IMG/VR virus record: IMGVR_UViG_3300035670_000158
Span: 51,251-71,250 of that record
Reading direction: 5' to 3' (one strand)
DNA from: an uncultured virus (IMG/VR IMGVR_UViG_3300035670_000158)
Lineage: Duplodnaviria; Heunggongvirae; Uroviricota; Caudoviricetes
Length of the DNA: 20,000 nucleotides
Part shown: positions 7,396-12,330 of the stretch, piece by piece
How positions within the stretch are numbered: position 1 is the first letter of the stretch
How the letters are laid out: every line of letters begins with the position of its first letter
The notes under the pieces: generated by a model
Database searches by the model: none
Told to the model about the DNA's origin: nothing
What the model saw: only the letters and a program-made list of their open reading frames with translations
Position numbers and translations under genes: made by a program

Positions 7396-7637
7396 TCATC
7401 CATCTTTGCTTTTAGTCCAAGTAGAGCAGTAAACAAAGTAAATAACGCATTATATCCTCTACTCTCAGACTCTTTGCAGTCTAAGGGTGGAGGATTTACT
7501 AATCCACCTAAAGCATCTGCTCTTTCCATGGAACCTGGAACCATAAAATTGCAGTTTGCAAAAGTAATACCAACGTATCCTAGTGTTCCTATTACAAGAG
7601 TGACAATGAGTTTATCAAGTAGCTTTAGATTTTTCAT
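7392..7637 (-). CDS. small two-TM membrane protein (holin-like candidate)
   Basis: 81 aa, two hydrophobic segments; minus-strand late promoter AATAAATA at 7666-7659. Confidence 0.65.
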   Translation of the reverse strand: MKNLKLLDKLIVTLVIGTLGYVGITFANCNFMVPGSMERADALGGLVNPPPLDCKESESRGYNALFTLFTALLGLKAKMDD

Positions 7638-7677
7638 CTTGCTTCTTGCTGACAGGTCTATTTATTTGGAGGGGGTC

Positions 7678-7707
7678 TTGACAAACCCCTAAATACTCAC
7701 TTATAAT
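7678..7707 (+). promoter_or_regulatory. sigma70-type promoter with embedded late-promoter-like CTAAATA
   Basis: TTGACA 7678-7683, 18 nt, TATAAT 7702-7707; CTAAATA 7689-7695. Confidence 0.7.
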
Positions 7708-7737
7708 GAATTTTCGTCATTAGTCCTTGACGTGTCT

Positions 7738-7803
7738 TAGAGCCGTGGGATCTGCCCTCTGAGAAGAGGGAAGTGCGCTTTTCCTATACGGATGTAGAGT
7801 TCA
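7738..7803 (+). ncRNA. candidate structured 5' leader of rlpA
   Basis: CCCTCT-GAGA-AGAGGG GNRA hairpin (7755-7770) enclosed by CCGTGGGA (7743-7750)/TCCT-at-ACGG (7782-7791). Confidence 0.4.
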
Positions 7804-7813
7804 ATCGAATTTA

Positions 7814-8176
7814 ATGCTTTTCAAATCACTTTCAATTCTCGCCATTGCCGCTGCAGGACTAGCACCCCTTCAGGCAAAGGCAGCGAGCGGATGTTCCCTC
7901 GCATCACATTATGGAGTCGGTGATGGATATCATGGGCAGACAACTGCAAATGGTGAAAGATATAACGCTTATGGAAAATCAGTAGCACATAAATGGCTTC
8001 CTTTTGGAACCAGATTGAGAGTTACAAATCAACGAAATGGTAAGTCAGTAATTGTGCGTGTAAATGATCGCGGTCCCTACGTTGGTGGGAGAGACCTTGA
8101 CTTGTCTTATGGTGCGTTCTCTTCTATTGCTCACCCAGGTCAAGGCGTTACTAGCGTCTGTTATTCAAGGGTCTAA
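7814..8176 (+). CDS. rlpA: RlpA-like lytic transglycosylase (DPBB domain) with signal peptide
   Basis: ASHYG...TANGERY...AHKWLPFGT...VRVNDRGPY...DLDLS; hydrophobic N-terminus ending AKA. Confidence 0.9.
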   Translation: MLFKSLSILAIAAAGLAPLQAKAASGCSLASHYGVGDGYHGQTTANGERYNAYGKSVAHKWLPFGTRLRVTNQRNGKSVIVRVNDRGPYVGGRDLDLSYGAFSSIAHPGQGVTSVCYSRV

Positions 8177-8192
8177 TTGAATACTAAATATT

Positions 8193-8220
8193 GGGGAGTG
8201 CTGCAGACCTCCCCTTTTTT
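8193..8220 (+). terminator. Rho-independent terminator
   Basis: GGGGAG...CTCCCC stem followed by TTTTTT. Confidence 0.7.
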
Positions 8221-8631
8221 ATGTTTAATTTCGGAAAGAAAAAACCCGATATAAAACAATACGCAATTGTAGGAGTCGTATTATCTTCTATTATTGCAGT
8301 TCTTTCGCAGTGTACCGGAATTCATGAGAACAATCTTTGGGATTTGTTTGATGAGATTCAAAGAAAGTATTTTCCACAAACTATGTTGAATGAGTTTATA
8401 CTTAAAGATCCTGATAAACTGAATCGTAGAATTCAAAGAGATGTTGATAAAGCAATCAATAATGTAACACCAGAGTATGATCGGATTATTTCCGATTATA
8501 CCCGAAAATATCAACCAAAATATGTGGAAGAACAAAATGACGAGACTGTGTGCTATACTAATGAATGTAAATCGTTAGCACCTCCCATGAGAATCTGTGC
8601 TCCTTGGGTTGACACCTGCCCTAAGGACTGA
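8221..8631 (+). CDS. hypothetical membrane-anchored protein
   Basis: ATG 8221 (MFNFGKKK), basic N-terminus, hydrophobic helix, Cys-rich C-terminus; ACTAAATA at 8183-8190. Confidence 0.7.
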   Translation: MFNFGKKKPDIKQYAIVGVVLSSIIAVLSQCTGIHENNLWDLFDEIQRKYFPQTMLNEFILKDPDKLNRRIQRDVDKAINNVTPEYDRIISDYTRKYQPKYVEEQNDETVCYTNECKSLAPPMRICAPWVDTCPKD

Positions 8632-8637
8632 TATAAT
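8609..8637 (+). promoter_or_regulatory. consensus sigma70 promoter for the tRNA array
   Basis: TTGACA 8609-8614, 17 nt, TATAAT 8632-8637, just upstream of tRNA-Arg. Confidence 0.85.
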
Positions 8638-8648
8638 AGGTGAGTTGA

Positions 8649-8720
8649 GGGCTCATAGTTAAATGGATATAACCCGATCCTTCTAAGATTGTGTTCTTGG
8701 TTCGATTCCAAGTGAGCCTG
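8649..8720 (+). tRNA. tRNA-Arg(TCT)
   Basis: Acceptor GGGCTCA/TGAGCCT, anticodon loop CTTCTAA, T-arm CTTGG-TTCGATT-CCAAG. Confidence 0.9.
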
Positions 8721-8722
8721 TT

Positions 8723-8805
8723 GCTTCAGTGGTGGAACGGTAGACACAGCGGACTTAGAATCCGCCGCCCTAAAAAGCGTGGAAGTTCAAATCTTCTCTG
8801 GAGCA
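8723..8805 (+). tRNA. tRNA-Leu(TAG)
   Basis: Acceptor GCTTCAG/CTGGAGC, GCGGA-CTTAGAA-TCCGC, long variable arm, TTCAAAT T-loop. Confidence 0.92.
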
Positions 8806-8806
8806 C

Positions 8807-8835
8807 TTGACAATCAAACCTAAATGGTTTATGAT
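8807..8835 (+). promoter_or_regulatory. sigma70-type promoter inside an inverted repeat
   Basis: TTGACA 8807-8812, 17 nt, TATGAT 8830-8835; GACAATCA/TGATTGTC arms. Confidence 0.7.
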
Positions 8836-8889
8836 TGTCTTATATCAAAAGGTATGATATAATAAATAAATATATTATACCTTAAGATT

Positions 8890-9243
8890 ATGCCATATAA
8901 AAACAAAGAGGACTATAAAAACTGGGAAAAGAGATATCGTAACGAATATTATCAAAGACCAGAAACAAAACAAAGATTGTCAGAGCAATCTAAGTTGCGT
9001 AGAGAACGAAATAAAAGTTTTGTTCTAGATAAAATGATTCCTTGTATTGTATGTGGTGAGAGTGACCCTATTGTTATTGATTTTCACCATTTAGATGAAT
9101 CTCAAAAAGATAAAGGAATTTCTCAAATGATGCAAAGTAATTATTCTTTGCAAAAAATACAAGAAGAACTTGACAAATGTGTTTGTTTATGTTCTAATTG
9201 TCATAGGAGAGTTCACGCAGGAACTCTTACTTTGCGGGTATAG
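8890..9243 (+). CDS. HNH endonuclease (putative free-standing homing endonuclease)
   Basis: CIVCG...DFHHLD...CVCLCSNCHRRVH; upstream hairpin 8849-8883 with AATAAATA in the loop region. Confidence 0.88.
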   Translation: MPYKNKEDYKNWEKRYRNEYYQRPETKQRLSEQSKLRRERNKSFVLDKMIPCIVCGESDPIVIDFHHLDESQKDKGISQMMQSNYSLQKIQEELDKCVCLCSNCHRRVHAGTLTLRV

Positions 9244-9304
9244 TTTAGGGGTAAAATGCCATCCTTCCAAGTTGGAGTCACCGGTTCGATTCCGGTTACC
9301 CGCT
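9234..9304 (+). tRNA. tRNA-Gly(TCC)
   Basis: Acceptor GCGGGTA/TACCCGC, loop CTTCCAA, T-arm ACCGG-TTCGATT-CCGGT. Confidence 0.9.
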
Positions 9305-9326
9305 CTGAACCTTTGGGTTCTTAAAA

Positions 9327-9432
9327 TGTGGTTCTGGGTGGAATTCCCAGCGGTTCCGTTAGGGACTGTCCTTTGTAGGTTCGATACCTACATCTTCCTT
9401 ATGGGAGATAAGAACGGCTATTGGAAACCACA
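9327..9432 (+). ncRNA. unassigned multibranch structured RNA with T-loop hairpin
   Basis: Closing stem TGTGGTT/AACCACA, four internal hairpins including TGTAGG-TTCGATA-CCTACA. Confidence 0.6.
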
Positions 9433-9433
9433 A

Positions 9434-9505
9434 CCTCTGGTAGTCTATTGGTAAGGACAGGCAGACAATGCACTTGGATACTAGGTTCGATTCCTAGACA
9501 GAGGA
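9434..9505 (+). ncRNA. tRNA-like RNA lacking a canonical anticodon stem
   Basis: Acceptor CCTCTG/CAGAGG, D-arm GTCT-ATTGGTAA-GGAC, T-arm CTAGG-TTCGATT-CCTAG; anticodon-arm positions do not pair. Confidence 0.65.
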
Positions 9506-9509
9506 CAAC

Positions 9510-9582
<73 letters not shown>

Positions 9583-9601
9583 AAATAAATCAAAAACTAT
9601 A

Positions 9602-10039
9602 ATGGAAACTTTATATGAAGTGCTTCATAAAGCACAGACAACATTATTTTGCTTGATGCAAAAGACTTGGGTATATCACTGGAATGTTGTGGGTAGTGAG
9701 TTCTTTCAATTGCATGAAGCATTTGGAAATCAATATGAGACTATGATTGAAGAAATTGATAGACTCACTGAACATATGAGGTACTTGAGAATGAAAGCAG
9801 TCGCACCAATTTCCATGGTTGCTGATACATCAGAAATTCCTGAAGCTACTTCTGGAGCGTCTGATAGAACCATGGTTGCTCAACTGTATAAAGACAACCA
9901 AAAACTGATTGAGGTCTTTACAGAAGCAATTGAAGCAGCAGAAAATAATAAGCAACGCTCTACTTCCAATTTACTTCAAGATCTGGTAGAATCTCATGGT
10001 AAAAATGTTTGGATGCTCAGATCATTTTTGAAAGAATGA
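9602..10039 (+). CDS. dps: Dps / ferritin-like DNA protection protein
   Basis: HWNVVGSEFFQLHEAFGNQYE...EIDRLTEH ferroxidase signature; C-terminal WMLRSF. Confidence 0.92.
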   Translation: METLYEVLHKAQTTLFCLMQKTWVYHWNVVGSEFFQLHEAFGNQYETMIEEIDRLTEHMRYLRMKAVAPISMVADTSEIPEATSGASDRTMVAQLYKDNQKLIEVFTEAIEAAENNKQRSTSNLLQDLVESHGKNVWMLRSFLKE

Positions 10040-10236
10040 AAGACAAAAAATTTAAAAAACTTATACAGAAACCATTGAGGTTTCATCACCAAGATATACA
10101 TGAAGAACTTGATGAAATTAAAGGGATGCTAAAAAATGTTATCAGTCAGATGCAAAGTTTGCAACAAAGAGTTGTCGAGCACGAACAAAACACAGTGCTG
10201 CGGATGCCCGAACATGACAACCGTGAGGGAGGATAA
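10036..10236 (+). CDS. hypothetical protein
   Basis: ATG overlaps dps stop (ATGA); MKDKKFKKLIQKPLRFHHQDIHEEL...; overlaps next ORF by 101 nt. Confidence 0.5.
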   Translation: MKDKKFKKLIQKPLRFHHQDIHEELDEIKGMLKNVISQMQSLQQRVVEHEQNTVLRMPEHDNREGG

Positions 10237-10384
10237 AATCTCTGCGGTTGACTTAAGTAAAGTTCTATTGCTAAATTCCGAAAAGAAGGTAAATAATCAT
10301 GGAATCCTGACAAATAAGGATTTAGAATTTCAAGAGAACAGACGGAAACGCAAAGTTCGTAAACTTTACTTTGAAGAAAGATGA
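10136..10384 (+). CDS. small putative Zn-binding protein
   Basis: CKVC...CCGCPN motif, basic C-terminus; stop overlaps next ATG. Confidence 0.75.
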   Translation: MLSVRCKVCNKELSSTNKTQCCGCPNMTTVREDKISAVDLSKVLLLNSEKKVNNHGILTNKDLEFQENRRKRKVRKLYFEER

Positions 10385-10608
10385 TTAACCTTCACCAACG
10401 ATTCAATCATTATCTCAATACAGATAAAACAATCAATGAACAAGACGTGAATGAGAAATTGATTAGTTATGGTTGGTTAGATAATGGTGTAGACATCACG
10501 GGATACTATCTCTTGACAGAGAACTTTGAATTGGTGTATGATATGCAAGAGAACTTCAAGCATAAGGTCCCACGGAGATCCTATGCTTGCCTCAAAACAA
10601 AAGGATAA
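10381..10608 (+). CDS. hypothetical protein
   Basis: 75-aa ORF translationally coupled (ATGA) to the previous gene. Confidence 0.7.
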   Translation: MINLHQRFNHYLNTDKTINEQDVNEKLISYGWLDNGVDITGYYLLTENFELVYDMQENFKHKVPRRSYACLKTKG

Positions 10609-10609
10609 T

Positions 10610-10633
10610 GGAAAGGTGGTCGAGTGGTTGAAG
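10610..10633 (+). pseudogene. truncated 5' fragment of a tRNA (Ser-like)
   Basis: GGAAAGG-TG-GTCGAGTGGTTGAAG is an acceptor 5' strand plus class II type D-loop, ending abruptly at an AT-rich hairpin. Confidence 0.7.
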
Positions 10634-10671
10634 TTCTAATTTTTCTAAATAAATTAGAACCATAAATAATT

Positions 10672-11061
10672 ATGCCATACAAGGATATAAAAAAGCAAAG
10701 AGAAGCGCAGCGACTCTGGGCTGAAAAACAATCTAGTGAGTTTAAAAAGGTAAAATACCAACGAGAACAAAACCACAAAAAGTTGATGGTTGAAAAACTA
10801 AATCAACTAAAATTAGAAAAAGGTTGTTGCGAATTGTGTGGTGAGTATCATCCACCATGTTGTTTTGATTTTCATCATTTGGACAAAACAACTAAATCAA
10901 AAGAAGTATCTCAGTTAGCTGCAAAAGGATACAAATGGGACACAATCTTGACTGAAGTTGAGAAGTGTGTTATGCTATGTGCTCCATGTCATCGTAAGAT
11001 ACATGCGGGACTGCTAACAATCTTGGAGAGTCAATCCGATTGGCGACGGAACCTGTCTTGA
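10672..11061 (+). CDS. HNH endonuclease (putative free-standing homing endonuclease)
   Basis: CELCG...DFHHLD...CVMLCAPCHRKIH; similar to 8890..9243; hairpin 10633-10660 and TAAATA motifs upstream. Confidence 0.88.
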   Translation: MPYKDIKKQREAQRLWAEKQSSEFKKVKYQREQNHKKLMVEKLNQLKLEKGCCELCGEYHPPCCFDFHHLDKTTKSKEVSQLAAKGYKWDTILTEVEKCVMLCAPCHRKIHAGLLTILESQSDWRRNLS

Positions 11062-11111
11062 AAACAGTTGAGGTGTTAAAGCCCTTGGGCGTTCGACTCG
11101 CCCACTCTCCG
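11025..11111 (+). tRNA. tRNA-Ser(TGA), atypical D-arm
   Basis: Acceptor GGAGAGT/ACTCTCC, CTGT-CTTGAAA-ACAG, long variable arm, GGGCG-TTCGACT-CGCCC, G discriminator. Confidence 0.85.
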
Positions 11112-11139
11112 TTGCTTTTTTATAAAAAGCATATTTCTT

Positions 11140-11213
11140 CGGGCATTAGCGCAGTTTGGTAGCGCGTTCCGTTTGGGGCGGAAAGGTCATAGGTTCAAAT
11201 CCTATATGCCCGA
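11140..11213 (+). tRNA. tRNA-Pro(TGG)
   Basis: Acceptor CGGGCAT/ATGCCCG, TTCCG-TTTGGGG-CGGAA, TTCAAAT T-loop. Confidence 0.93.
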
Positions 11214-11240
11214 TATATAAAACAAGTAACTAAAACTCAA

Positions 11241-11423
11241 ATGTCGTTACCAAAAAATCAAATCACAATTGATGAATTCAGATCTAATCATGAACATTAC
11301 CTAGAAAGAATGCAAGCTGGAGAAACGTTTTCTTTCACAGATTTTGACCAAAATAAACATAACTTACATGAACCAGTAAACAATAAAGGAATACCGATCG
11401 ATATTGAAGAGATCAAATTCTAG
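11241..11423 (+). CDS. small hypothetical protein (weak Phd/YefM-like N-terminus)
   Basis: 60-aa ORF between tRNAs; ITIDEFRSNHEHYLERMQAGETFSFT. Confidence 0.6.
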   Translation: MSLPKNQITIDEFRSNHEHYLERMQAGETFSFTDFDQNKHNLHEPVNNKGIPIDIEEIKF

Positions 11424-11433
11424 TCTAGTGTTT

Positions 11434-11506
11434 GCTGGTTTAGCTATCTGGTGAAAGCGCCCGACTCATAATCGGATACAGGTGAGTTCGATCCTCACAA
11501 CCAGCA
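11434..11506 (+). tRNA. tRNA with CAT anticodon (elongator Met or Ile2)
   Basis: Acceptor GCTGGTT/AACCAGC, CCGA-CTCATAA-TCGG, GTGAG-TTCGATC-CTCAC; paired 1-72, so not initiator-type. Confidence 0.88.
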
Positions 11507-11512
11507 TTGGAG

Positions 11513-11541
11513 TTGACAGCAACTCCAAATTGTCCTAAAAT
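11513..11541 (+). promoter_or_regulatory. sigma70-type promoter inside an inverted repeat
   Basis: TTGACA 11513-11518, 17 nt, TAAAAT 11536-11541; TTGGAGTTG/CAACTCCAA arms. Confidence 0.75.
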
Positions 11542-11563
11542 GACTGGGTAAACACAAAGTCCA

Positions 11564-11776
11564 ATGTCTATTTCAGAAAAGTTTCAAAAGTACCTTCCTA
11601 TTCTTGAAGAAGCTGTTGAAGGATCCGTTTTTCTTGATCTTAAAAACCCCAAACTTTATAAAAAAATTGTTCGTTATTACGCAAATGAGGGTGTAAAGTT
11701 CTATGACGATCCCAACGAAGACTATGCCACAGTGGTAGAATGTCTTGCAAATGATCTGAAGAAGGTTGCTCGATGA
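11564..11776 (+). CDS. hypothetical protein
   Basis: 70-aa ORF downstream of a promoter, coupled to the next gene. Confidence 0.75.
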   Translation: MSISEKFQKYLPILEEAVEGSVFLDLKNPKLYKKIVRYYANEGVKFYDDPNEDYATVVECLANDLKKVAR

Positions 11777-12006
11777 AACCAAATGTTCTTATGGAGCGGC
11801 ACCCATACCGCTATGTGAGCACAGGAACTCTGGAAAATGGGTTCCCAGATTACAGAATTCAAAAGTTCAATGAATGGTCAAAACGTTATTCTGACATGTA
11901 TCTGTGTGACAATCAAATGCAAATTTTGACTGCCATTGAAGATTTTGAATATACAAAGTGGTTGGATCCAGATCCTGAAGTCGGTGCCTATAGGCATTGG
12001 ACATAA
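11773..12006 (+). CDS. hypothetical protein
   Basis: 77-aa ORF, ATGA overlap with previous gene. Confidence 0.75.
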   Translation: MKPNVLMERHPYRYVSTGTLENGFPDYRIQKFNEWSKRYSDMYLCDNQMQILTAIEDFEYTKWLDPDPEVGAYRHWT

Positions 12007-12036
12007 TAAATAACACAGAAGATTTTCAATTCACCA

Positions 12037-12210
12037 ATGGTAACTTCAAAGTCAACAACTGGATCGTTCACATCTGAAATTGAAAAGAGACTACAATCTC
12101 TTGAAGAAAAAGCACATGCTCCCTGTGGTGGTGCTTCTGTTCCTGCAGATTTAGCTGCTAAGTTTGAAGAACTTTGGGGTTGGTATCAATCCGTAAAATC
12201 AAAAGTTTGA
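12037..12210 (+). CDS. small hypothetical protein (57 aa, not in ORF track)
   Basis: MVTSKSTTGSFTSEIEKRLQSLEEKAHAPCGG...KSKV*; late promoter AATAAATA at 12005-12012. Confidence 0.7.
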   Translation: MVTSKSTTGSFTSEIEKRLQSLEEKAHAPCGGASVPADLAAKFEELWGWYQSVKSKV

Positions 12211-12330
12211 TTTCTTATTTTTTCAAAATAAGTGGCGCGTCTGATTTCCTAGTTTGGCAAACTAGGTGGTGGAGTCAATGACCCAAAGACACGGATGGTC
12301 TATAACAGCACTGGTCGGGAGAACCCCCCT
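12209..12330 (+). ncRNA. structured RNA, two TTTC-hairpin-GTGGYG units (wcaG/manA-like)
   Basis: CTTATTTT/AAAATAAG then TGGCG; CCTAGTTT/AAACTAGG then TGGTG. Confidence 0.5.

What the first reader, a model, noticed from the sequence alone, without database searches (positions are those of the whole stretch)
8849..9304. Second, related HNH cassette with the same architecture, ending inside tRNA-Gly
Seen: a 13-bp hairpin (8849-8861/8871-8883) enclosing TAAATA motifs precedes an HNH that shares MPYK..., CxxCGE, DFHHLD and KCVxLCxxCHRxxHAG with the 10672 protein. Its last codons and TAG stop (9241-9243) are tRNA-Gly positions 1-10. No upstream tRNA remnant is visible here. Inference: two insertions of one HNH family, each fused to the 5' end of a different tRNA, suggest a family of tRNA-associated mobile nucleases.
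Basis: partly seen in the sequence, partly recalled or inferred. Interest (0 to 1): 0.7.

Follow-up and report, generated by a model that had tools for sequence, protein, structure and literature searches.

The report
Selfish nuclease docked on glycine tRNA
A small selfish DNA-cutting-enzyme gene has slotted in directly in front of this cyanobacterial virus's glycine tRNA gene and borrows the tRNA's own bases as its stop signal; the general layout is known from phages T4 and T5, but the control hairpin in front of the gene resembles a piece of the tRNA gene, which may reveal where the enzyme cuts.

Summary
Observation confirmed. In a T4-like cyanophage, a 117-aa zinc-finger HNH gene (8890-9243; PHROG 2255/3106) ends at tRNA-Gly nt 8-10, behind a 13-bp hairpin with NATAAATA late-promoter motifs. 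Relatives lack 8846-9233 precisely (42 of 43 tRNA-Gly contexts fetched via neighbours are empty); near-identical HNH+tRNA units sit in unrelated flanks; dN/dS 0.07-0.20. Among genes ending at a tRNA, the stop lies inside it for 39 of 46 HNH-family events versus 5 of 42 other genes; 13 amino-acid types, with isotype-faithful clades. Best reading: a free-standing homing endonuclease that travels with a replacement tRNA-Gly; cleavage and homing are inferred, not shown. Correction: relatives keep 12-18-nt tRNA-Gly remnants upstream, and the hairpin arms match tRNA-Gly nt 3-14 in register (9 of 12 relatives, p<=0.05); Pro/Ser clades carry T-loop-like arms instead. The arms may be operator/target copies or relics. 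Precedent: T4 SegB (hairpin, processing-based control proposed) and T5 hegC/hegD (stops inside tRNAs; a different HNH class). This scan noted the stop-in-tRNA layout before in other genomes. Verdict: new variant of a known kind.

The parts
8723..8806 (+). tRNA-Leu(tag), left flank; shared with empty-site relatives
8807..8835 (+). sigma-70-type promoter (TTGACA-17-TATGAT) of the resident tRNA-Gly, lying in its own conserved hairpin 8808-8840; present in empty alleles, so host-phage side, not cassette
   Evidence: 11 of 12 consensus matches; fold; empty alleles
8846..9233 (+). inserted cassette (388 bp) between the promoter leader and tRNA nt 1; absent from empty alleles
   Evidence: L081 matches the window at 90% to 8845 and resumes at the tRNA; joint 8845 to tRNA in run X4 and loose end at 8845 in run X8; alignment A3
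8849..8861 (+). hairpin 5' arm; resembles tRNA-Gly nt 4-14 of another allele (relic or operator/target copy)
8861..8872 (+). two overlapping NATAAATA late-promoter-like motifs (8861-8868, 8865-8872) in the loop and the start of the 3' arm
   Evidence: cyanophage consensus NATAAATA from PMC2984593 passages; function inferred
8871..8883 (+). hairpin 3' arm, ending 6 nt before the ATG; in relatives complementary to tRNA-Gly nt 3-14
8890..9243 (+). HNH endonuclease gene, 117 aa: long N-terminal helices, CxxC...CxxC zinc finger, DFHH and CxxCHRxxH; no stop codon of its own
   Evidence: PHROG 2255 E 2e-28, 3106 E 8e-27; invariant residues kept; AlphaFold pLDDT 95.7; dN/dS 0.07-0.20
9234..9305 (+). 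tRNA-Gly(tcc), intact; co-travels with the HNH; nt 8-10 (9241-9243) are the HNH stop
10610..10633 (+). displaced tRNA-Ser nt 1-24 remnant before the second cassette (context)
   Evidence: 24 of 24 match to a tRNA-Ser(tga) allele (locus L001 identical to the window)
10672..11061 (+). second HNH (Ser subfamily), stop TGA is the anticodon of tRNA-Ser(tga) 11024-11112 (context)

Best explanation
A free-standing homing endonuclease cassette specific for the phage tRNA-Gly(tcc) locus. SHOWN: the cassette (hairpin + late-promoter motif + HNH) occupies the slot between the resident promoter and nt 1 of an intact tRNA-Gly; most relatives have the slot empty; HNH and tRNA allele move together into different flanks; the protein is under purifying selection. 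INFERRED: (1) in mixed infection the enzyme nicks or cuts an empty tRNA-Gly gene, probably in its 5' third (acceptor stem to D-loop), and repair copies the HNH plus the donor's spare tRNA over the recipient's, sometimes leaving the recipient's nt 1-12/18 as an upstream remnant; (2) the insertion is harmless without splicing because RNase P removes any 5' leader; (3) the same cut at 9233/9234 removes the last codons and stop of the HNH message, and the hairpin blocks initiation on early transcripts (fold -13.0 kcal/mol) but not on late ones begun inside it (-1.4), so little enzyme is made and only late; (4) the tRNA-like hairpin arms provide recombination homology at the left junction and may double as an autorepression operator.
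For: Empty sites: 42 of 43 distinct tRNA-Gly contexts in loci fetched via neighbouring features (the one filled, L149, is the contig identical to the window), exact boundary at 8845/8846; empty (depth 55 and 7) and filled (4.5) alleles in one sequencing run, X4. Unit transfer: L002 ORF 99%, tRNA 100%, but tRNA-Leu 58% and upstream 45%; L003 vs L004/L005 ORF 92-93%, tRNA 100%, downstream 48-49%. Enrichment 39 of 46 vs 5 of 42, Fisher p 4e-12 (events not independent). 40 cluster-by-isotype events, 13 amino acids, 21 at nt 8-10; where the tRNA offers a stop at 8-10, 18 of 25 use it (p 9e-5). Gly clade (7 rows, SH-aLRT 94), Pro (98), Ser (99), Met (99) clades. Three loci (L013, L015, L279) join three different tRNA-Gly 5' ends to the same cassette end at about nt 18; S-RIM50 has a 12-nt direct duplication of tRNA nt 1-12. 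Early versus late transcript folds. Precedent for hairpin/late-promoter control and for processing-based control in PMC2988022 and PMC2330249.
Against: No cleavage, homing or expression data. The window's tRNA-Gly allele, and one other of the 10 filled alleles, also occur in empty sites (L113), so immunity cannot rest on the tRNA allele alone. HNH and tRNA are not always co-inherited (L013 vs L015: ORF 90%, tRNA 68%). Only 6 of 77 fused loci keep a clear same-isotype remnant. Ordinary genes also end inside tRNAs at times (CpeT in S-WAM2; 5 of 42). The window's hairpin does not contain the ATG or a Shine-Dalgarno sequence. Fold searches gave no match above Z 3.9. Most cellular homologues have no tRNA next to them.
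Confidence: 0.72

Rival explanations
1. Mobile, but the tRNA is only a safe landing pad: the enzyme cuts a neighbouring gene or a loosely defined site, and the stop overlap comes from genome compaction (spacer lost because RNase P trims the leader anyway).
For: T4 free-standing endonucleases often cut hundreds to thousands of bp from their gene (PMC2988022 passage); other genes also end inside tRNAs (5 of 42); the HTH-tailed clade hops among Thr, Lys, Val, Asp and Met tRNAs with near-identical protein; the window's allele exists at empty sites.
Against: Isotype-faithful clades over 55-60% protein divergence; hairpin arms match the matching tRNA in register; repeated junctions at tRNA nt 12-18; preference for the nt 8-10 frame.
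Confidence: 0.15
2. Domesticated gene: the phage keeps it for its own benefit, e.g. to cut competing phage or host tRNA genes, or to amplify tRNA genes against anticodon-nuclease defence as shown for SegB.
For: Strong purifying selection; SegB-driven amplification of anti-defence loci (PMC13096335, abstract start and passages).
Against: Rare and patchy (1 of 43 contexts filled); precise insertion and unit transfer are what selfish spread predicts; selection is also expected for an active homing gene. The two readings are not exclusive.
Confidence: 0.1
3. The tRNA (or its precursor) is an RNA cofactor or guide of the nuclease, as in OMEGA/HEARO or TIGR-Tas systems.
For: Fixed physical fusion to a structured RNA; top but non-significant fold rows include TasH and IscB HNH domains (Foldseek E 0.87; VIA Z 3.9).
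Against: The protein is 117 aa with no further domain; the tRNAs are ordinary and exchangeable alleles also found alone; most homologues have no RNA beside them; no Rfam match other than tRNA in 7600-12300 above gathering score.
Confidence: 0.03

Closest known systems
Phage T4 SegB (GIY-YIG free-standing homing endonuclease in the tRNA cluster; PMC2330249: abstract, first part of Discussion and passages read)
   Same: Free-standing, in a tRNA cluster, absent from relatives; upstream hairpin; the paper proposes that tRNA-Arg maturation cuts the message between the last and the stop codon; SegB recognises the T-loop motif GGTTCRANTCC, the motif that the Pro/Ser-clade hairpin arms resemble.
   Different: Different nuclease family (1.9 bits against profile A2); 221 aa; the annotated segB stop ends 5 nt before mature tRNA-Arg rather than inside it; relaxed multi-tRNA specificity, whereas clades here track one isotype; the paper reports no promoter close to segB.
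Phage T5 hegC (F-TflI) and hegD (F-TflII), and T5.069 (RefSeq NC_005859; Akulenko 2004 seen only as a reference entry; the hegC/hegD = F-TflI/II mapping comes from earlier finding e1-6082833, not checked)
   Same: HNH genes in a tRNA cluster whose annotated stops lie inside the next tRNA (hegC 14 nt into tRNA-Ser, hegD 23 nt into tRNA-Gln, T5.069 24 nt into tRNA-Asn); control by transcript processing proposed.
   Different: Not homologous at profile level (0.5, 1.6 and -1.1 bits); about 190 aa with other domains; no late-promoter hairpin seen in the 60 nt upstream (by eye).
PHROG 2255 / 3106 HNH endonucleases, incl. cyanophage S-RIM50 AMO42802.1
   Same: S-RIM50 orthologue is 56% identical with the same 10-nt overlap with tRNA-Gly; family hits E 2e-28 and 8e-27.
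   Different: Annotated only as putative/HNH endonuclease; no target, activity or tRNA link found in the 8 paper searches.
Hairpin- and operator-regulated T4 homing endonucleases I-TevI/II/III and Aeh1 mobE (PMC2988022, passages read)
   Same: Late promoter inside an RNA hairpin upstream of the ORF; operators resembling the homing site overlap the promoter.
   Different: Those hairpins sequester the RBS; here the stem ends 6 nt before the ATG (closer to the seg43(25) exception in that review); here the target-like sequence forms both arms of the inverted repeat.

Membership tests
HNH (beta-beta-alpha-Me) zinc-finger nucleases, PHROG 2255/3106 | Profile match to the family | tested here: met
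   E 2.3e-28 and 8.3e-27; Pfam HNH_2 only E 0.039, below cut-off
HNH (beta-beta-alpha-Me) zinc-finger nucleases, PHROG 2255/3106 | Catalytic and zinc residues intact | tested here: met
   C52, C55, H66, H67, C101, C104, H105, H109 invariant in 64 sequences and present in the window protein; residue roles assigned from recall of McrA-type HNH, the usual Asn is Lys96
HNH (beta-beta-alpha-Me) zinc-finger nucleases, PHROG 2255/3106 | Fold match to solved HNH nucleases | tested here: inconclusive
   Top rows are HNH proteins (IscB Z 3.9, Gme HNH 3.8, T5 SciA 3.7) but weak; no Foldseek E<=0.001; profile hits EcoKMcrA E 9e-5
Free-standing homing endonuclease genes | Optional element with allelic empty sites | tested here: met
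   42 of 43 contexts empty, exact boundary
Free-standing homing endonuclease genes | Horizontal spread with co-converted flank | tested here: met
   Segment identities; one pair (L013/L015) shows the tRNA exchanged behind the ORF
Free-standing homing endonuclease genes | Site-specific cleavage of the empty allele and sparing of its own | not testable with these tools
   Needs an assay; allele comparison only suggestive
Free-standing homing endonuclease genes | Biased inheritance in co-infection | not testable with these tools
   Needs crosses
Free-standing homing endonuclease genes | Late promoter inside an upstream hairpin | tested here: met
   Sequence level only; TAAATA inside 28 of 54 inverted repeats of fused relatives
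Free-standing homing endonuclease genes | Hairpin sequesters RBS/start codon (I-TevI type) | tested here: not met
   Stem ends at 8883, ATG at 8890, no Shine-Dalgarno in the stem; met in the HTH-tailed clade, whose 3' arm has GAGG next to the ATG
SegB / GIY-YIG Seg endonucleases | GIY-YIG domain, homology to SegB | tested here: not met
   SegB scores 1.9 bits against A2
T5 F-TflI/II type HNH (hegC, hegD) | Stop codon inside the next tRNA | tested here: met
T5 F-TflI/II type HNH (hegC, hegD) | Sequence homology | tested here: not met
   0.5 and 1.6 bits against A2
Group I intron-encoded HNH in a tRNA gene | Intron RNA core interrupting the tRNA | tested here: not met
   tRNA contiguous; no intron family in the Rfam scan of 7600-12300; cassette has only 44 non-coding nt

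The most novel reading that the evidence does not exclude
The inverted repeat around each cassette's late promoter is an operator built from two copies of the enzyme's own tRNA target (nt 3-16 in the Gly/Val clades, the T-loop in the Pro/Ser/Thr clades), so one element serves as RNA hairpin, autorepression site and left homology arm. The family would then be a natural panel of 90-120-aa nucleases, each addressed to one tRNA isotype with its specificity readable from its upstream DNA, that drives the turnover of tRNA alleles in cyanophage populations using RNase P processing in place of splicing.
Probability: 0.3. Interest if true: 0.72.

Novelty: new variant of a known kind. Interest (0 to 1): 0.48.

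Why it matters
If right, it explains why phage tRNA clusters are so polymorphic (53 allele calls, 51 distinct tRNA-Gly sequences, in these loci alone): selfish nucleases overwrite tRNA genes with spare copies, which bears on the open question why phages carry and swap tRNAs. It shows a way to sit at a conserved target without an intron, and makes two testable predictions in a culturable system (S-RIM50 carries the orthologue): a cut in the 5' third of tRNA-Gly, and self-limitation by RNase P removing the stop codon. The layout itself has precedent in T4/T5 and was noted before in this scan; the hairpin-mirrors-target link is the part not found in the papers or earlier notes searched.

Tried and rejected
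Homodimer prediction gave no verdict. Foldseek found nothing at E<=0.001 and VIA-align nothing at Z>=5; absence of a family there excludes nothing. Pfam gave no hit above cut-off. An RNA run (X15) has a contig over 8821-9240, but contigs cannot show ends, strand or transcription, so it is not used. ARAGORN's tRNA-Phe(gaa) calls behind the HTH-tailed clade are the small RNA also at window 9330-9400, not tRNAs; 12 Phe rows were dropped before the final counts (11 false, 1 in genome locus L365 probably real). The first filled/empty labelling flagged any HNH within 400 nt and was replaced; L349 (Gly, other clade) was left out of the allele comparison. Loci fetched via tRNA neighbours (L081-L208) were excluded from the homologue tallies because they are biased to tRNAs. 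'Immunity by tRNA allele': 0 of 10 filled vs 14 of 43 empty alleles carry the commonest D-arm type (Fisher p 0.047, post hoc), but 2 filled alleles also occur empty, so only suggestive. The window's own 3' arm does not match tRNA-Gly nt 1-18 better than shuffles (p 0.39); its best whole-tRNA match is at nt 15 onward (p 0.03). 39 of 54 inverted repeats show no significant tRNA likeness, including the window's second HNH (p 0.66). The tree is a quick IQ-TREE search (SH-aLRT only, 118 columns, 150 rows; cellular-genome rows and rows under 70 bits left out), deep forks unresolved; no formal label-change test was run. Paper searches showed no title or abstract start describing this family's tRNA fusion or tRNA-like operators; the library lacks most subscription papers, and no supplements were read. 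Earlier-findings look-ups by sequence and for 'hairpin mimics tRNA operator' returned nothing.

Full report
Setting. The window is the tRNA cluster of a T4-like cyanophage: its primase is closest to Synechococcus phages Bellamy and S-SM2 (69%), and the record is a 71-kb virus fragment that holds only these two members of the HNH family.

Observation. ORF 8890-9243 (117 aa) overlaps tRNA-Gly(tcc) 9234-9305 by 10 nt; its TAG is the tRNA's U8-A9-G10. The 13-bp hairpin folds with one G-U pair (z -4.0) and holds two overlapping NATAAATA motifs, the cyanophage late-promoter consensus given in PMC2984593 (passages). The protein is 38% identical to the 10672 protein, matches PHROG 2255/3106 HNH endonucleases, keeps all residues invariant in a 64-sequence alignment, folds confidently (pLDDT 95.7: two long N-terminal helices and a zinc-finger HNH core) and is under purifying selection (dN/dS 0.07-0.20 against 7 relatives). 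Fold searches returned HNH proteins only weakly.

It is an optional insertion. Relatives fetched by the upstream gene or by tRNA-Leu mostly read tRNA-Leu, a 38-40-nt spacer with a sigma-70 promoter, then tRNA-Gly. L081 matches the window at 90% up to 8845 and continues straight into a different tRNA-Gly allele; the cassette is 8846-9233. Of 43 distinct tRNA-Gly contexts in those loci 42 are empty (not all at the Leu slot), the filled one being the contig identical to the window. One sequencing run holds both forms (empty joints at depth 55 and 7, filled contig 4.5). HNH and tRNA allele travel together: L002 has ORF 99% and tRNA 100% identical to the window but tRNA-Leu 58% and upstream DNA 45%; L003 shares ORF (92-93%) and tRNA (100%) with L004/L005 but not the downstream DNA (48-49%, background level). 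L013 and L015 are a counter-example (ORF 90%, tRNA 68%).

Family-wide test. Of 141 viral homologue loci scored (142 fetched), 78 end inside a tRNA, 11 are fused to a tRNA-like small RNA mis-called Phe, 14 end within 150 nt before a tRNA, 36 have none, 2 are cut; these loci are redundant (24 clusters at 60%, 10 with overlap). In the best 80 of at least 593 metagenome hits 19 of 78 scored overlap; in the best 80 of at least 581 cellular-genome hits 2 of 79. So tRNA fusion marks phage lineages, not the whole family. As control, among conserved genes whose stop lies within 60 nt before or inside a tRNA, the stop is inside for 40 of 47 family events (39 of 46 without Phe) against 5 of 42 other genes and 3 of 6 other nucleases (p about 4e-12, events not fully independent). 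Forty cluster-by-isotype events cover 13 amino acids; 21 stop at nt 8-10, and 18 of the 25 whose tRNA offers a stop there use it. When nt 8-10 are TGG (L015) the frame simply reads on to nt 15, so the stop is borrowed. The quick tree shows Gly (7 rows, SH-aLRT 94, sister to a mainly Val group), Pro (98), Ser (99, with the window's second HNH) and Met (99) clades, plus one HTH-tailed clade of near-identical proteins on Thr, Lys, Val, Asp and Met tRNAs. Of 8 annotated phage regions inspected, overlaps occur in S-RIM50, a Salmonella phage, a Streptomyces phage and S-WAM2, while 4 have no annotated overlap.

The hairpin is tRNA-like. Four Gly-clade relatives keep one: S-RIM50 has tRNA nt 1-12 duplicated on both sides of the cassette, and L013, L015 and L279 join three different tRNA-Gly 5' ends to the same cassette end at about nt 18; overall only 6 of 77 fused loci keep a clear remnant (2 of 77 score as high for another isotype). 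The complement of the 3'-arm region matches tRNA-Gly nt 3-14 in constant register, better than shuffles in 9 of 12 sequences (p 0.003-0.05; the window's own is not significant, its 5' arm is, p 0.02). Across the family 15 of 54 inverted repeats beat shuffles at p<=0.05 (2.7 expected; rows related): Gly/Val arms map to nt 2-9 onward, Pro and some Ser/Thr arms to the T-loop, and one Ser remnant (L213) breaks off in the T-loop. Either the 5' arm is a relic of the first insertion and the 3' arm evolved to pair with it, or both arms are binding sites, like the homing-site-like operators of I-TevI (PMC2988022 passages). Both readings point to the target. Filled alleles avoid the commonest D-arm type (0 of 10 vs 14 of 43, p 0.047, post hoc), yet the window's allele also occurs empty, so self-protection probably also depends on the replaced leader or on low expression.

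Mechanism (inferred from the above and from established tRNA processing). The enzyme nicks or cuts an empty tRNA-Gly gene in its 5' third; repair copies HNH plus spare tRNA. RNase P removes any leader, so no splicing is needed, and the same cut strips the HNH stop codon. Early transcripts from the 8807-8835 promoter fold the hairpin (-13.0 kcal/mol), late ones starting at about 8874-8877 do not (-1.4, -0.9).

Comparison. PMC2330249 (abstract, first part of Discussion, passages) shows SegB homing in the T4 tRNA cluster, recognition of the T-loop motif, and proposes both hairpin occlusion and cleavage between last and stop codon during tRNA-Arg maturation, also citing T5 F-TflI-type genes. In RefSeq, T5 hegC, hegD and T5.069 end inside tRNAs, T4 segB 5 nt short of tRNA-Arg; none is homologous to this family. 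PMC6409571 (passages) notes HNH genes in mycobacteriophage tRNA clusters; PMC13096335 (passages) adds SegB-driven amplification; PMC7344957 (passages) was not relevant. The scan's earlier notes report the same stop-in-tRNA layout in at least 48 genomes. Eight searches showed no paper on this family's isotype fidelity or tRNA-like arms; supplements were not read and subscription papers are mostly absent.

Verdict. Real, well supported as a mobile tRNA-docked HNH cassette; works like SegB/F-TflI, is a member of neither family; new variant of a known kind; interest 0.48, with a 0.3 chance that the arms are operators that spell out each enzyme's target.

Noticed in passing
window 9330-9400: Conserved small RNA with a T-loop-like hairpin after tRNA-Gly; in L055, L056, L071-L077, L079, L080 an HTH-tailed HNH is fused to its 5' end, where ARAGORN mis-calls it tRNA-Phe. 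The nucleases thus also dock on a non-tRNA stable RNA.
   Followed up: partly
window 9434-9506: tRNA-like element not called in the window but called Leu(caa) or His(atg) in L002, L004, L005; conserved at 83-96%. Possibly the sealed tRNA look-alike of earlier finding e1-5377556.
   Followed up: no
window 8808-8840: The sigma-70 promoter before tRNA-Gly is itself a hairpin whose arms covary across empty-site relatives; similar hairpins overlap TTGACA before other tRNAs and at window 11510-11528.
   Followed up: no
L033, L041, L052, L059, L069, L078 and related: A clade of 180-aa HNH proteins with a C-terminal HTH-like tail, near-identical in sequence, is fused to Thr, Lys, Val, Asp and Met tRNAs with junctions a few nt after the same motif; its upstream hairpin sequesters a GAGG ribosome-binding site.
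   Followed up: partly
L213 about 1380-1460: 72-nt tRNA-Ser remnant broken off in the T-loop directly before the Ser-clade hairpin.
   Followed up: partly
L277 143-667 and 658-731 (S-WAM2): The cpeT gene, not a nuclease, also ends 10 nt inside tRNA-Asp; in S-RIM50 cpeT precedes the HNH-tRNA-Gly unit. Phd-like genes before tRNA-Ala and the phrog_6312 gene before tRNA-Ser do likewise.
   Followed up: partly
L147, L166, L031, L012 1314-1988: A second, more distant HNH-like family also ends inside tRNA-Leu(tag), Val or Arg (mostly nt 21) in these cyanophages.
   Followed up: no
L439 10007-10525 (T5.069): Annotated hypothetical, looks by eye like a GIY-YIG-type nuclease (label recalled, not tested) and ends 24 nt inside tRNA-Asn.
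   Followed up: no
window 12150-12246: Sub-threshold wcaG RNA match (24.6 bits, gathering 42) ahead of the sugar-nucleotide gene cluster.
   Followed up: no
L012, L013, L015, L019, L051: Single phage tRNA clusters carry two or three different members of this family, each on a different tRNA.
   Followed up: partly
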